From Candidatus Saccharimonadota bacterium (GTDB lineage Bacteria; Patescibacteriota; Saccharimonadia; Saccharimonadales; Saccharimonadaceae): a stretch of DNA of 32,000 bases. Shown here in pieces: positions 2,251 through 27,159 of this stretch (position 1 is the stretch's first letter; the number at the start of each line of letters is the position of its first letter). The DNA lies in the NCBI GenBank assembly GCA_000503915.1, contig CP006915.1, forward strand, positions 300,001 to 332,000, written 5' to 3'. Made by a program: the position numbers and the translations under genes. Under the pieces are notes generated by a model. It ran no database searches and was not told the DNA's origin. It saw nothing but the letters and a program-made list of their open reading frames with translations.

Positions 2251-2658
2251 CTAAACGCTCGTGCCGCTACCGGCGCCACCCGTGAAGCTATCGAGTACGA
2301 AATTGACGATCGCGTAGGCCAAGAGGGCGATAATCACGCCGACGATTGCGTAGAGGATGGTGTTTTTGGCTGCAGTCACCGCTGTTGAGCTACCGCCAGA
2401 GATGACGTAGCGCAGGCCGCCGATGATGATCATGATAACCGATACGGCGCCGAGTACGAAGAGAAGGACGTTAGTAATCGTCCGGAAAATACCGGTTTGA
2501 CCAAAGAGATCAGTAGTTTGACTATTGCCGCGTGCCGCTTCTGCGCCGCCCTGAATAGTACCGTCAAATGCACCTACCATCGGTGCTGCGTAGATGGCGA
2601 GCACCAACGCTGCCGTGAGAAATGAAGGTAAAACTGTCCGAATCATTGTTTTGGTCAT
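2251..2658 (-). CDS. T4SS-pilin-like (TrbC/VirB2-type) protein, paralog 3, with signal peptide
   Basis: The internal ATG at 2658 has AAAGGAAAA upstream. N-terminus MTKTMIRTVLPSFLTAALVLAIYAAPMVGA. The conserved core reads LFGQTGIFRTITNVLLFVLGAVSVIMIIIGGLRYV...AAKNTILYAIVGVIIALLAYAIVNFVLDSF. Confidence 0.75.
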   Translation of the reverse strand: MTKTMIRTVLPSFLTAALVLAIYAAPMVGAFDGTIQGGAEAARGNSQTTDLFGQTGIFRTITNVLLFVLGAVSVIMIIIGGLRYVISGGSSTAVTAAKNTILYAIVGVIIALLAYAIVNFVLDSFTGGAGSGTSV

Positions 2659-3101: not shown

Positions 3102-3109
3102 GGAGAGGA

Positions 3110-3138
3110 AGACCATATCTGAAGGATATGGTCTTTTT
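3110..3138 (+). terminator. Rho-independent terminator right after tRNA-Ser(GCT)
   Basis: 10-bp hairpin agaccatatc-tgaag-gatatggtct followed by tttt. Confidence 0.75.
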
Positions 3139-3169
3139 CTTCTGATGAAGAAAGGAAATTCGAACGGTC

Positions 3170-3225
3170 GAGTTCGGGCGAAGCGTTCGAGGCTATTGCC
3201 GAGAACCATCTCCCCTCCTCCGCCA
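3170..3225 (+). repeat. Interrupted partial copy of the tRNA-Ser(GCT) 3' end
   Basis: gagttcg (3170-3176) equals tRNA 3076-3082. After a 31-nt unrelated insert, atctcccctcctccgcca (3208-3225) is 18/18 identical to tRNA 3084-3101. Confidence 0.85.
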
Positions 3226-3380
3226 GAATGAAAAACGCTCGACCAAATGGCCGGGCTTTTTTCATACGCCGCAGGCGGCGGAATTCAAACTCCGCGCTGA
3301 TTTTGTTCGCCGTAGCTCACAAAACGCGGGAGTGGTGCTCGCGTTGCTCGCACCTCCGTTCGACTAAAGCCTCACTCCGA

Positions 3381-5028: not shown

Positions 5029-5150
<122 letters not shown>

Positions 5151-5191
5151 TTGTGTTGGGGTTTGAACCCTCGATTTTGCGAAAGCAAAAT

Positions 5192-5303
5192 ACCGAGGGT
5201 TCGGCAAAAGGAGTGAAACGAAAAAGTGGTTCCATTTTTTCGTAAGCGACTGGAGGAGCGAACAAAGTGAGCGATATCCCTCCCTCTCCCCCAGGCTAGC
5301 CAG
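5192..5303 (+). repeat. Interrupted partial copy of the tRNA-Ser(CGA) 3' part
   Basis: accgagggttcg (5192-5203) equals tRNA 5086-5097. After an 82-nt insert, atccctccctctcc (5286-5299) equals tRNA 5099-5112, followed by c (g in the tRNA) and cca. A perfect hairpin, gaaccctcg...cgagggttc, spans 5165-5201 and contains a D-loop-like ggtttgaac. Confidence 0.85.
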
Positions 5304-25975: not shown

Positions 25976-26039
25976 CTGTTCTATTATAGAAATCGCAGTG
26001 AGGTAAAAGCAACCAAAAGCAGGCCGTATTTTTGACAAC

Positions 26040-26048
26040 TGGTACAAT
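26040..26048 (+). promoter_or_regulatory. Extended -10 promoter (TGgTACAAT) upstream of the tRNA-Ser(GGA) locus
   Basis: Read directly. The predicted transcription start lies about 5 nt before the 5' tRNA fragment at 26060. Confidence 0.5.
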
Positions 26049-26059
26049 AGAGTACGCGG

Positions 26060-26072
26060 GGAGAGGTGGCCG
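26060..26072 (+). repeat. 5' fragment copy of tRNA-Ser(GGA)
   Basis: ggagaggtggccg is 13/13 identical to tRNA 26197-26209, then diverges. It can fold back on cctctc at 26085-26090. Confidence 0.7.
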
Positions 26073-26196
26073 TGAAGCGAAGTGCCTCTCGCAGACAATC
26101 TTGATTGTCGAGAAAGGTACGAGCGGATATAGTGAGGATGTGCCAGCGGCACACCGGAACGCTGTGGATACGAGGCCATCGATCCGAGCGAAGTAA

Positions 26197-26286
26197 GGAG
26201 AGGTGGCCGAGTGGTTGAAGGCGCACGCTTGGAAAGCGTGTATACGTGCAAACGTATCGCAGGTTCGAATCCTGTTCTCTCCGCCA
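26197..26286 (+). tRNA. tRNA-Ser(GGA), class II, CCA encoded
   Basis: Acceptor ggagagg/tctctcc, anticodon stem cacgc/gcgtg with loop uuGGAaa, long variable arm, T-arm cagg-ttcgaat-cctg, then gcca. Confidence 0.9.
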
Positions 26287-26295
26287 GGAGAGGCG

Positions 26296-26322
26296 AGCTC
26301 ATTCTTTATGAATGGGCTTGTT
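26296..26322 (+). terminator. Hairpin/terminator right after tRNA-Ser(GGA)
   Basis: 9-bp hairpin agctcattc-tttat-gaatgggct (one G-U pair), followed by tgtt. Confidence 0.5.
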
Positions 26323-26352
26323 CCTTCTATCGAGAGAAAGCAGGGTTCGAGC

Positions 26353-26454
26353 CAGGTTCGACAGTTGTCACAATCTTTTGATTTGATAACTGTTAGCGAG
26401 TGGTGGCGCTAGCATAGCGCTATCACTCAAGCGTTCATCCTGTTCTCTCCGCCA
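26353..26454 (+). repeat. Interrupted partial copy of the tRNA-Ser(GGA) 3' part
   Basis: caggttcg (26353-26360) equals tRNA 26260-26267. After a 76-nt insert, atcctgttctctccgcca (26437-26454) is 18/18 identical to tRNA 26269-26286. In addition, ggagagg (26287-26293) directly follows the tRNA CCA. Confidence 0.85.
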
Positions 26455-26531
26455 AGATAACAGAGTTGCTAACAGGAAAAAGTTGAGATCAAAAACAACA
26501 TTTTTGAAATGTACAGCTTTACAACTAGTTA

Positions 26532-26783
26532 TTAGCGACCAGCGCCACGATCGGGACTCTTATAGTCGCCACCCTTCCAAATTGCCCAGACTACAAATCC
26601 AACAATAAAACCGACTAGTAGCTGTAGCCAGTACGGAACATCTCTAAGGAAGCTATGGTCGCTCAAGCCATCGATAATGGATACGACGATGAGACCACCG
26701 ATTGTCACGAGAAAAATATATAATGCTGGCAACAGTATCCATCTACGGACAAAGTCGGCGGTTCTTAATAGCTCTTTTTTCAT
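26532..26783 (-). CDS. Hypothetical small membrane protein (two TM helices)
   Basis: 83-aa ORF with hydrophobic segments ILLPALYIFLVTIGGLIVVSII and WLQLLVGFIVGFVVWAIW. On the minus strand, TTGACT-17-TACTGT ends 8 nt before the ATG. Confidence 0.55.
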   Translation of the reverse strand: MKKELLRTADFVRRWILLPALYIFLVTIGGLIVVSIIDGLSDHSFLRDVPYWLQLLVGFIVGFVVWAIWKGGDYKSPDRGAGR

Positions 26784-26832
26784 TGACCATACAGTACTCC
26801 TCTTCTATAAAGTAGTCAAACGCTTATGTCTA

Positions 26833-26890
26833 TGCTATAATAAACGTAAGCAGCTAAACAGCTCCCCGACTGGGGGCTGTTTTTGTTTTT
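26833..26890 (+). ncRNA. Candidate mini transcription unit: extended -10 promoter followed within ~15 nt by an intrinsic terminator
   Basis: TGcTATAAT at 26833-26841. Hairpin at 26856-26882 (aaacagctcccc-gact-gggggctgttt, one bulge), then tttttgttttt. No + strand gene lies upstream for it to terminate. Confidence 0.35.
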
Positions 26891-26951
26891 CAAAACCTCA
26901 ACCAAGGTGGGGCTTGTTATGTTGCAAATTAACACAACAAGGAGCAAGAAA

Positions 26952-27050
26952 ATGAAAGAATGCAAGCAAAGGCTATTTATTACAAACTTCCTTACAATCT
27001 TACGTATTTTATTGATAATCCATGAGATTATTGAACCTATGTGTCACTGA
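26952..27050 (+). CDS. Candidate 32-aa hydrophobic small protein
   Basis: GGAG lies 7 nt upstream of the ATG. Sequence MKECKQRLFITNFLTILRILLIIHEIIEPMCH. It sits in an AT-rich stretch of the long nrdA upstream region and is below the size cut-off of the ORF track. Confidence 0.3.
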   Translation: MKECKQRLFITNFLTILRILLIIHEIIEPMCH

Positions 27051-27159
27051 AGCCAATATTTATAACCGCTACATATAGCGTTGTAAAAAAGCAACACTAC
27101 GCTACAAGAGGTAGTGTAAGCAAAAGCGCCATGTGGTGAAAAAAACGTTAGGAAAAGAC

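What the first reader, a model, noticed from the sequence alone, without database searches (positions are those of the whole stretch)
26040..26454. tRNA-Ser(GGA) nested between a promoter-proximal 5' fragment and a T-loop-split 3' copy that could fold as a tRNA-like RNA
A TGgTACAAT promoter (26040-26048) is followed about 12 nt later by ggagaggtggccg (26060-72), identical to the first 13 nt of the tRNA. The real tRNA starts only 137 nt later, at 26197. Immediately after its CCA comes ggagagg again (26287-93), then a hairpin, and then caggttcg (26353-60). A 76-nt insert and the exact last 18 nt of the tRNA (26437-54) follow. Nt 26287-26454 could therefore form an acceptor stem (ggagagg with tctctcc), a T-stem (cagg/cctg) and an encoded CCA. 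This is a minihelix-type tRNA-like RNA with an expanded T-loop and no anticodon arm. Whether it is a scar or a functional tRNA-like trailer cannot be decided from sequence.
Basis: partly seen in the sequence, partly recalled or inferred. Interest (0 to 1): 0.62.

Follow-up and report, generated by a model that had tools for sequence, protein, structure and literature searches.

The report
Small insertion cassettes flanking a tRNA gene
The partial tRNA copies on both sides of this Saccharibacteria serine-tRNA gene are left by small, conserved, hairpin-rich DNA units that sit beside many tRNA genes in this bacterial group and rebuild the tRNA end they displace; I found no published description of them.

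Summary
The proposed minihelix fold is not supported. GGAGAGG after the CCA is the foot of a terminator hairpin. The 3' copy is predicted to pair with a linker at 26332-26346, not with the post-CCA heptamer or a T-stem.

The trailer 26287-26454 is one member of a family found only in Saccharibacteria. Each unit holds:
- a terminator;
- a linker that in most units is an inverted T-arm copy (ambiguous in the window);
- a forward T-arm 5' half;
- a roughly 76-nt two-hairpin module;
- a copy of the cognate tRNA's 3' end.

The module shows strong covariation: 20 of 24 pairs carry double changes across 68 distinct copies. Units follow at least 16 tRNA species, reach 10 per genome, and are patchy among relatives. 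One filled versus empty comparison places the unit exactly after the CCA. Other module families share the frame. One of them forms the 137-nt insert (124-nt leader plus rebuilt nt 1-13) behind the 13-nt 5' fragment.

My best reading (about 0.5) is a miniature tRNA-end insertion cassette whose recombinase is unidentified.

The parts
26032..26048 (+). Native tRNA-Ser(GGA) promoter: TTGACAACTGGTACAAT, with the extended -10 TGgTACAAT at 26040-48
   Evidence: The sequence is. The same word lies directly upstream of intact tRNA-Ser(GGA) genes in relatives. An extended -10 is found in 18 of 50 tRNA upstream regions.
26060..26072 (+). Displaced 5' fragment, tRNA nt 1-13
   Evidence: It is an exact 13-nt repeat of 26197-26209 (D6). 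It has the same spacing from the -10 as a real tRNA start in G013. G005 has the same fragment plus a homologous insert.
26073..26196 (+). 5' insert, a 'type C'-like structured module, between the displaced fragment and the tRNA
   Evidence: It is 73% identical to G005. It shares the boundary motif TGAAGCGAAG, a hairpin and the motif CGAGCGGAnATAG with inserts of 3' units elsewhere.
26197..26286 (+). Intact tRNA-Ser(GGA) with encoded CCA
   Evidence: ARAGORN and Rfam RF00005 at 57.7 bits.
26287..26327 (+). Terminator-type hairpin that belongs to the 3' unit; GGAGAGG is its 5' foot
   Evidence: The minimum-energy fold is. Every unit has a hairpin here. The hairpin is part of the inserted block in the G010 versus G019 comparison.
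26328..26353 (+). Linker: GAGAGA..GCAGGGT is complementary to the 3' copy. In most other units this position holds an inverted T-arm copy. In the window its orientation is ambiguous because the T-loop core is palindromic.
   Evidence: In the fold, 26332-37 and 26340-46 pair with 26437-49. Inverted T-arm copies are clear where T-loops are asymmetric, for example Lys, Trp, Glu and Asp.
26354..26360 (+). Forward T-arm 5' half (AGGTTCG, followed by A at 26361)
   Evidence: Covariance-model match 26354-26437.
26361..26393 (+). Module hairpin 1 (nnnnTGTCA..AATC-TnT-GATT..TGAyAnnnn)
   Evidence: Inverted repeat I7. Helices 1 and 2 have 96-98% of cells paired, with covariation.
26398..26428 (+). Module hairpin 2 (14-bp stem, triloop, conserved G.U pair)
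   Evidence: Inverted repeat I1. In helix 3, 12 of 13 pairs carry double changes. G.U is conserved at alignment columns 64-105.
26429..26436 (+). Conserved single-stranded tail of the module (AAGCGTTC)
   Evidence: CGT is invariant and the preceding G nearly so across the 22 seed copies.
26437..26454 (+). Displaced 3' end of the tRNA (nt 59-76, including CCA)
   Evidence: Exact copy of 26269-26286 (D2). In 50 units this copy matches the cognate tRNA at about 90% per position.
26455..27060 (.). Lineage-specific DNA between the unit and the conserved nrdA upstream region. It includes an 83-aa minus-strand ORF at 26532-26783.
   Evidence: In G035 the conserved nrd upstream region starts about 74 nt after the tRNA, against about 846 nt in the window. 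The ORF has no Pfam match.

Best explanation
The tRNA-Ser(GGA) gene has been hit on both sides by miniature insertion cassettes that rebuild the tRNA end they displace.

On the 3' side, a block of about 168 nt entered the gene at or after the T-loop. It carries a replacement 3' end or a target duplication, a terminator hairpin, a linker complementary to the 3' region, a forward T-loop half and a two-hairpin module. The old 3' end (26437-54) was pushed downstream.

On the 5' side, a 137-nt block did the mirror-image thing and stranded the native promoter plus nt 1-13. That block is the 124-nt leader 26073-26196 plus the rebuilt nt 1-13.

What is shown:
- the anatomy of the locus;
- the family of units;
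- the specificity of the copies for their target tRNA;
- one comparison of a filled and an empty site;
- tandem stacking of units;
- patchy gain and loss among relatives.

What is inferred:
- The units move, or moved, as DNA by recombination within the short tRNA identity.
- The recombinase is supplied in trans and is not identified.
- The module is the element's folded recognition core on the tRNA-sense strand.

The copy in the window may itself now be inert.
For: - The same architecture follows different tRNAs. Of 61 type-A units, 50 have a same-strand tRNA within 330 nt upstream, covering 16 anticodon species. The 3' copy always matches that tRNA, at about 90% per position.
- One genome, G253, has 10 modules, each downstream of a different tRNA; at Glu-ctc the module is truncated and follows another insert.
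- The module is patchy: 34 of 151 family genomes and 17 of 151 order genomes.
- On a neighbour-gene tree, G000 groups with three genomes that lack the unit.
- In the filled versus empty comparison (G010 against G019), the 167-nt unit, including its terminator, lies exactly between the CCA and the conserved next gene.
- Different module variants stack in tandem in G176.
- Two 98.9%-identical modules with their linkers bracket a RibD_C/DHFR-like gene in G277.
- Near-identical modules (96%) sit at Ser-CGA and Ser-TGA in one genome, and each has its own tRNA-specific 3' copy.
- Truncated and decayed copies exist.
- The clade's tRNA-type extended -10 promoter occurs in 0 of 50 units against 18 of 50 tRNA upstream regions.
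- Unit geometry is constant: the distance from tRNA end to module has a median of 70 nt and an interquartile range of 67-74.
- The own genome has 3' or 5' partial copies at 15 or more of its 43 tRNAs, with several module families in the same frame.
- It is established that integrating elements leave one complete and one partial tRNA copy (PMC9897764; 10.1101/2020.12.28.424599).
Against: - No recombinase is encoded in the unit, and none was tied to it.
- These genomes hold only one tyrosine recombinase each.
- Five unit-rich genomes have no IS110 or TnpB-type gene, and only one has a reverse transcriptase.
- Large serine-recombinase islands use a different junction and lie between the tRNA and older units.
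- Copies within G253 are diverged yet all keep their helices, which also fits selection on each copy.
- The conserved G.U pair and the strand-specific fold would suit an RNA.
- No excised or free form was seen, and no within-species polymorphism was found.
- The mechanism that makes the linker and the forward half match each new target is unexplained.
Confidence: 0.5

Rival explanations
1. The unit is a functional structured RNA. It would be made by read-through of the tRNA terminator or from an unrecognised promoter. It would form a four-way junction in which the linker pairs with the two halves of a tRNA 3' mimic, and the two module hairpins bind a protein. Possible roles are a decoy, a processing signal or a regulatory signal tied to the cognate tRNA. 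This is the closest surviving form of the first reader's idea.
For: - Covariation is very strong: 94.9% of cells are paired against 76% in shuffles, and 20 of 24 pairs carry double changes.
- A G.U pair is conserved, and G.U exceeds A.C by 83 to 17, which places the fold on the tRNA-sense strand.
- Folding energy is extreme (z = -9.75).
- Unit size is constant at about 150-175 nt even across unrelated module types.
- Each 3' copy is usually followed by its own terminator.
- Diverged copies within one genome all keep the structure.
- Apparently orthologous loci in G000, G013, G006 and G010 show compensatory stem changes.
Against: - No promoter is present in 0 of 50 units, and a terminator lies upstream of every unit.
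- The CCA is lost in a third of copies, and the 3' copy is perfect in only 17 of 50.
- Truncated copies exist.
- The distribution is patchy and close relatives lack the unit.
- Module families are interchangeable in the same frame.
- No Rfam family matches.
- No expression data could be obtained.
Confidence: 0.25
2. The units are passive scars. Larger islands, such as serine-recombinase elements or phages, integrated repeatedly into the tRNA ends and were later deleted. Only their end sequences and the displaced tRNA fragments remain. The units would never have moved on their own.
For: - Large serine-recombinase islands do sit at tRNA 3' ends in this genome (Glu-TTC about 20 kb, Gln-CTG about 9 kb) and in G115, each with displaced fragments.
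- Serial integration that leaves partial tRNAs is well documented (10.1101/2020.12.28.424599; PMC9897764).
Against: - Random deletions would not give a constant unit size (interquartile range 67-74 nt to the module).
- They would not give intact covarying hairpins in 70 copies.
- The serine-recombinase islands examined abut their displaced fragment without any module or linker.
- No long element ending in the module was found apart from the 0.9-kb single-gene cassette in G277.
Confidence: 0.15
3. The module is an independent miniature transposon of the IS200/IS605 or REP type. It would be moved by the Y1 (HUH) transposase-like proteins of these genomes and would insert 3' of the T-loop word TTCGA in pre-existing pseudo-tRNA fragments.
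For: - The module has two subterminal hairpins, a fixed orientation and insertion right after GGTTCGA.
- Y1_Tnp-like genes occur in 29 of 151 family genomes. They overlap the 34 module-bearing genomes in 15, against about 6.5 expected, uncorrected for kinship.
- One copy lies in a different context, an antisense D-arm fragment upstream of a tRNA-Gln.
Against: - G013 has four modules and no Y1 gene.
- No module-like sequence lies near four Y1_Tnp loci fetched, two of them bona fide IS200-type.
- The hairpins flanking the own genome's Y1 gene are unrelated in sequence and do not lie beside tRNAs.
- Several unrelated module families would all have to target the same T-loop position.
Confidence: 0.08

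Closest known systems
attL/attR remnants of tRNA-targeting integrative elements (Williams 2002; Islander; Prochlorococcus tycheposons)
   Same: A complete tRNA and a displaced partial copy form direct repeats around inserted DNA. The element restores the tRNA end. Serial insertions stack partial tRNAs. Islands grow outward from the tRNA.
   Different: The inserted DNA is only about 150-175 nt and has no integrase. The displaced copy is preceded by a forward T-loop half, a structured module and an inverted T-arm copy. A mirror-image form exists on the 5' side. These genomes hold no tyrosine integrase besides a single Xer-like gene.
Integron gene cassettes with attC sites
   Same: The recombination-site candidate is conserved in structure rather than sequence, folds on one strand, sits at the end of small cassettes (one carries a single gene) and accumulates in arrays at a fixed chromosomal site.
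   Different: There is no IntI-type recombinase. The array site is a tRNA 3' end and not attI. Most units carry no gene. The site contains copies of the target sequence.
CTX-phage type folded single-strand attP (IMEX elements that use host Xer)
   Same: Two inverted copies of the target-like sequence are separated by a bulged spacer, and they could fold into a duplex that mimics the chromosomal target. No recombinase lies in the element.
   Different: The target is a tRNA gene and not dif. The element is tiny. Single-stranded transfer and Xer involvement are pure inference here.
MITEs, REP elements and palindrome-associated elements of IS200/IS605
   Same: They are small, hairpin-rich, multi-copy, non-coding and patchily distributed.
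   Different: No terminal inverted repeats and no autonomous partner were found. Copies in a genome are diverged. Each copy carries target-specific tRNA sequence.
tRNA-like RNAs (tmRNA tRNA-like domain, YrlA/Y RNAs, viral tRNA-like structures, acceptor-T minihelices)
   Same: It contains a T-arm-like sequence and an acceptor 3' strand, often ending in CCA. The T-loop insertion point (58/59) is where T-loop motifs tolerate insertions, from my general knowledge of T-loop motifs.
   Different: There is no conserved acceptor pairing and the T-loop half is sequestered. The CCA is not conserved. No promoter is present. No Rfam match was found.

Membership tests
   GGAGAGG at 26287-93 pairs inside the terminator hairpin. 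After non-Ser tRNAs the post-CCA heptamer does not resemble tRNA nt 1-7 (1.2 of 7). The 3' copy pairs mainly with the post-CCA region in 3 of 48 folds.
   The 3' copy pairs mainly with the T-stem 5' strand in 1 of 48 folds. The forward half pairs mainly with the linker in 19 of 48. In units that moved between tRNAs the forward half does not match the local T-stem, as in L032, L033 and L034.
   The CCA is kept in 33 of 50 copies.
No canonical promoter occurs in 0 of 50 units.
Integrative element at a tRNA gene (attL/attR) | Direct repeats of a tRNA segment flanking the inserted DNA, with the tRNA restored | tested here: met
   18-nt repeat at 26269-86 and 26437-54. Seen in 50 units.
Integrative element at a tRNA gene (attL/attR) | An empty site in relatives with the same flanks | tested here: met
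   G019 (empty) against G010 (filled) share the downstream gene, and the difference equals the 167-nt unit. No empty site with the window's own flank was found.
Integrative element at a tRNA gene (attL/attR) | A site-specific recombinase encoded in the element | tested here: not met
   The unit is 168 nt with no ORF. There is one tyrosine recombinase per genome. The serine-recombinase islands use other junctions.
IS200/IS605-derived miniature element or REP | An autonomous relative with the same end hairpins, or a cognate Y1 transposase | tested here: inconclusive
   Co-occurrence is 15 observed against 6.5 expected. G013 has modules without Y1, the modules are absent from four Y1_Tnp loci fetched (two bona fide IS200-type), and the own genome's Y1-flanking hairpins differ.
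IS110 bridge-RNA, TnpB omega-RNA or retroelement | Presence of the cognate enzyme (DEDD transposase, TnpB or reverse transcriptase) | tested here: not met
   0 of 5 unit-rich genomes for PF01548 and PF07282, and 1 of 5 for PF00078.
Any Rfam family | A covariance-model match at or near the gathering score | tested here: not met
   Only the tRNA reaches threshold. The weak sub-threshold matches overlap the tRNA.

The most novel reading that the evidence does not exclude
These units are a previously undescribed class of element. One form would be a recombinase-free, target-copying miniature cassette system. It would use tRNA ends as docking sites, build small gene arrays there, and rely on a folded single-stranded site that mimics the tRNA gene. 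The other form would be a family of tRNA-cognate structured RNAs with interchangeable expansion modules. In either case the sequence of the linker and the 3' copy would be programmed by the neighbouring tRNA.
Probability: 0.3. Interest if true: 0.85.

Novelty: new variant of a known kind. Interest (0 to 1): 0.66.

Why it matters
Saccharibacteria have tiny, streamlined genomes of about 0.8-1 Mb. Even so, a quarter or more of their tRNA genes can carry these units. That points to either an efficient and unrecognised way of inserting DNA at tRNA genes or an unrecognised RNA class tied to tRNAs.

If the units are mobile, they show how gene cassettes enter genomes that lack classical integrases, and they could offer a docking site for genetic tools in these hard-to-manipulate bacteria. 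If they are RNAs, they add a lineage-specific layer of tRNA biology.

There is also a practical consequence. The partial tRNA copies and hairpins can mislead tRNA and small-RNA annotation in genomes of the candidate phyla radiation.

Tried and rejected
- **Rfam:** both the gathering-threshold and the permissive E-value searches found no family for the trailer or the leader.
- **IS200/IS605 link:** four Y1_Tnp loci (two bona fide IS200-type) carry no module-like sequence. The hairpins flanking the own genome's Y1-like gene are unrelated and do not lie at tRNAs.
- **IS110 bridge RNA, TnpB guide RNA and retroelement ideas:** the enzymes are absent from unit-rich genomes.
- **Tyrosine integrase:** there is only one Xer-like gene per genome.
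- **Serine-recombinase att site:** the islands examined have different junctions and lie between the tRNA and older units.
- **Own promoter inside the unit:** none was found. The TTGACA word in hairpin 1 has no -10 at a usable spacing (read from the sequence).
- **Phage origin:** there were no matches in viral contigs with a strict pattern.
- **Empty-site search for the window's own flank in metagenomes:** no match.
- **Earlier notes of this scan:** none was found for this sequence.
- **Post-CCA GGAGAGG as a conserved acceptor strand:** I considered this because one relative with acceptor GGAAGAG has ggaagag after its CCA. I judge it mostly a coincidence of purine-rich terminator feet, since non-Ser units lack it.

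Full report
**1. The observation**

- The extended -10 TGGTACAAT lies at 26040-48.
- The 13-nt copy of tRNA nt 1-13 lies at 26060-72.
- tRNA-Ser(GGA) lies at 26197-26286.
- GGAGAGG directly follows the CCA.
- A hairpin follows, then CAGGTTCG at 26353-60.
- A 76-nt insert follows, then an exact 18-nt copy of the tRNA 3' end at 26437-54.

The trailer 26287-26454 folds at -81.5 kcal/mol, z = -9.75. The window is G000:C1:300001-332000 of an 845-kb single-contig genome.

**2. The trailer is a family member, not a one-off**

A DNA search in 60 relatives showed the tRNA plus trailer conserved in three genomes of the same genus. Unexpectedly, the 76-nt insert also matched many other places. After fetching those places, ARAGORN found different tRNAs just upstream: Ser-CGA, Ser-TGA, Asp, Gln, Glu and Trp. 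The layout is always the same:
- the tRNA ending in CCA;
- a terminator-type hairpin (typically AGAAAA..stem..TTTTCT);
- a linker that holds an inverted copy of the T-arm;
- a forward T-arm 5' half (GGTTCGA or GGTTCAGA);
- a conserved two-hairpin module;
- a copy of the 3' end of whichever tRNA lies upstream;
- usually another terminator.

**3. Structure of the module**

An alignment of 22 modules gave two hairpins, and 15 of 24 pairs had compensatory changes. A covariance model built from it recovered 70 copies in the loci held. On the 68 distinct rows:
- 94.9% of cells form standard pairs, against 76.4% in shuffles and at most 48% when partners are slid;
- 20 of 24 pairs carry changes on both sides.

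One G.U pair is nearly fixed. G.U exceeds A.C by 83 to 17, or 26 to 17 without the two G.U-rich columns. The fold therefore belongs to the tRNA-sense strand, as RNA or as single-stranded DNA. No Rfam family matches.

**4. Distribution**

- The module occurs in 34 of 151 sampled genomes of the family, at 1-8 copies each, and in 17 of 151 genomes sampled across the order.
- A strict pattern found it only in Saccharibacteria genomes and in no viral contig.
- Of 61 units collected, 50 have a same-strand tRNA within 330 nt upstream, covering 16 anticodon species.
- One genome, G253, carries ten modules, each downstream of a different tRNA: Arg, Gln, Asp, Lys, Leu, Ser, Met, Val, Asn and Glu; the Glu-ctc copy is truncated and follows another insert.
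- The own genome has a second module about 20 kb downstream of tRNA-Glu(TTC), inside a stack of three displaced tRNA-Glu 3' fragments.

**5. Geometry and decay**

The distance from tRNA end to module start is tightly constrained: median 70 nt, interquartile range 67-74. The 3' copy matches its tRNA at about 90% per position. However, it is perfect in only 17 of 50 units, and the CCA survives in only 33 of 50. Truncated modules and orphan 3' remnants occur.

**6. Evidence that the unit is inserted DNA**

- G010 (filled) and G019 (empty) share the gene downstream of tRNA-Ser(GGA). In G019 the ORF starts 29 nt after the CCA. In G010 the 167-nt unit, terminator included, lies between the CCA and a 25-nt spacer before the homologous ORF.
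- Relatives without units have a plain terminator or nothing after the CCA.
- On a tree of the conserved upstream ABC-ATPase gene, G000 groups (97/92 support) with three genomes that lack the unit. The other three carriers lie in a second subclade together with non-carriers. This is a single-gene tree.
- G176 has three tandem units of two module variants.
- In G277, two modules with their linkers, 98.9% identical, bracket a RibD_C/DHFR-like gene.
- In G017, two 96%-identical modules with identical linker cores follow Ser-CGA and Ser-TGA. Each has its own tRNA-specific 3' copy and a different terminator.

**7. The frame is general and the modules are interchangeable**

In the own genome, 3' end copies lie 26-190 nt downstream of these tRNAs:
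- Lys-CTT
- Lys-TTT
- Gly-TCC
- Met
- Ser-GCT (window about 3210)
- Ser-CGA (window about 5278)
- Ser-GGA
- Trp

More distant copies lie 20 kb downstream of Glu-TTC and 9 kb downstream of Gln-CTG.

The inserts belong to several other families but occupy the same T-loop position, and the total spacing is similar, mostly 145-177 nt. tRNA-Ser(GGA) itself carries other module types in other families of the order (L013, L014, L019, L028, L031).

**8. The 5' side**

The native promoter word lies 9-11 nt upstream of the tRNA start in relatives. In the window it is followed at the same spacing by the 13-nt fragment. The 13 nt therefore mark the old start of the gene. The 137 nt that follow are an insertion, made up of the 124-nt leader (26073-26196) and the rebuilt nt 1-13.

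- G005 has the same fragment with a homologous leader at 73% identity, in which the hairpins differ in sequence but keep their form.
- The leader shares its boundary motif TGAAGCGAAG, a variable hairpin and CGAGCGGAnATAG with 'type C' inserts of 3' units.
- At least six other tRNAs of this genome have 5' copies upstream (Leu-GAG, Pro-TGG, Met, Pro-GGG, Gln-CTG, Gly). Several of these have a new promoter-like box next to the tRNA.

The 5' form thus mirrors the 3' form. The unit supplies the expression signal and the rebuilt tRNA end, and the module abuts the displaced fragment.

**9.

- GGAGAGG is the foot of the terminator hairpin.
- Purine-rich feet are general (83-91% purine), but resemblance to tRNA nt 1-7 is confined to Ser tRNAs, whose acceptor strand is itself purine-rich.
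- In the window the 3' copy pairs with GAGAGA..GCAGGGT at 26332-46.
- Over 48 units the copy pairs mainly with the linker (21) or is mainly unpaired (18). It pairs mainly with the T-stem 5' strand once and with the post-CCA region three times.
- The forward half and the linker core travel with the module in some cases and then mismatch the local T-stem.

A minihelix with an expanded T-loop is therefore not the conserved structure.

**10. Search for an enzyme**

Five unit-rich genomes gave the following:
- no IS110-type or TnpB-type genes, and a reverse transcriptase in only one;
- exactly one tyrosine recombinase each;
- three to seven large serine recombinases each.

The serine-recombinase islands studied lie between the tRNA and older units. 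Their far ends abut a short displaced fragment without linker or module.

Y1 (HUH) transposase-like genes occur in 29 of 151 family genomes and overlap module-bearing genomes more than expected: 15 against about 6.5, uncorrected for kinship. Against a link, G013 has four modules and no such gene, four Y1_Tnp loci fetched (two bona fide IS200-type) lack the module, and the hairpins around the own genome's Y1 gene are unrelated. The enzyme remains unidentified.

**11. RNA or DNA?**

- No extended -10 promoter of the kind used by tRNAs in this clade occurs in any of 50 units, against 18 of 50 tRNA upstream regions. Every unit also lies behind a terminator.
- The strand-specific fold and the preservation of helices in diverged copies keep a read-through RNA function open.

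**12. Verdict**

I rank the readings as follows:
- miniature tRNA-end insertion cassettes, about 0.5;
- a functional tRNA-linked RNA family, about 0.25;
- passive scars of larger elements, about 0.15;
- a Y1-mobilised miniature transposon, below 0.1.

Partial tRNA copies left by integrating elements are well known (PMC9897764; 10.1101/2020.12.28.424599). I found no description that combines the following: a unit of about 170 nt without a recombinase, a T-loop split by a structured module, an inverted T-arm copy, mirror-image 5' and 3' forms, and interchangeable module families (paper searches).

Noticed in passing
window 3102-3226 and 5118-5294: tRNA-Ser(GCT) and tRNA-Ser(CGA) in the same window carry their own 3' units. 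Each has a terminator, an inverted T-arm, a forward T-loop half, an insert and a copy of the tRNA 3' end. The inserts belong to other module types.
   Followed up: partly
Rfam does not call it, so it is probably a false positive.
   Followed up: no
G000:C1:67600-87631 and 805100-814360 (outside the window): Islands of about 20 kb and 9 kb, with large serine-recombinase genes, lie between tRNA-Glu(TTC) or tRNA-Gln(CTG) and older displaced 3' fragments. G000 holds five resolvase-domain matches in all.
   Followed up: partly
G000:C1:30752-31445 (outside the window): A 207-aa Y1 (HUH) transposase-like gene (motifs NHFHLL and RYIHLNP) is flanked on both sides by the palindrome CCCTATTGCAAGGATnATCCTTGCAATAGGG. 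This is a REP/RAYT-like arrangement. A few further copies of the palindrome half lie elsewhere in the genome.
   Followed up: partly
window 26030-26041 versus 26362-26373 and 26383-26394: The promoter-region word TTTTGACAACTG is the inverted complement of the 5' strand of module hairpin 1, and it resembles its 3' strand (TTGATAACTGTT). It may be chance or a relic of shared origin.
   Followed up: no
L097 (G176:C19:176000-183393), module at locus 2508-2592 (-): One type-A module lies upstream of a tRNA-Gln in the opposite orientation. It is flanked by antisense D-arm fragments of that tRNA. The module is therefore not restricted to T-loop contexts on the 3' side.
   Followed up: partly
window 26455-27060: About 600 nt between the unit and the conserved nrdA upstream region are absent in G035. 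They hold an 83-aa minus-strand ORF without a Pfam match and an isolated terminator at 26856-26882. This may be older cargo of the same insertion site.
   Followed up: partly
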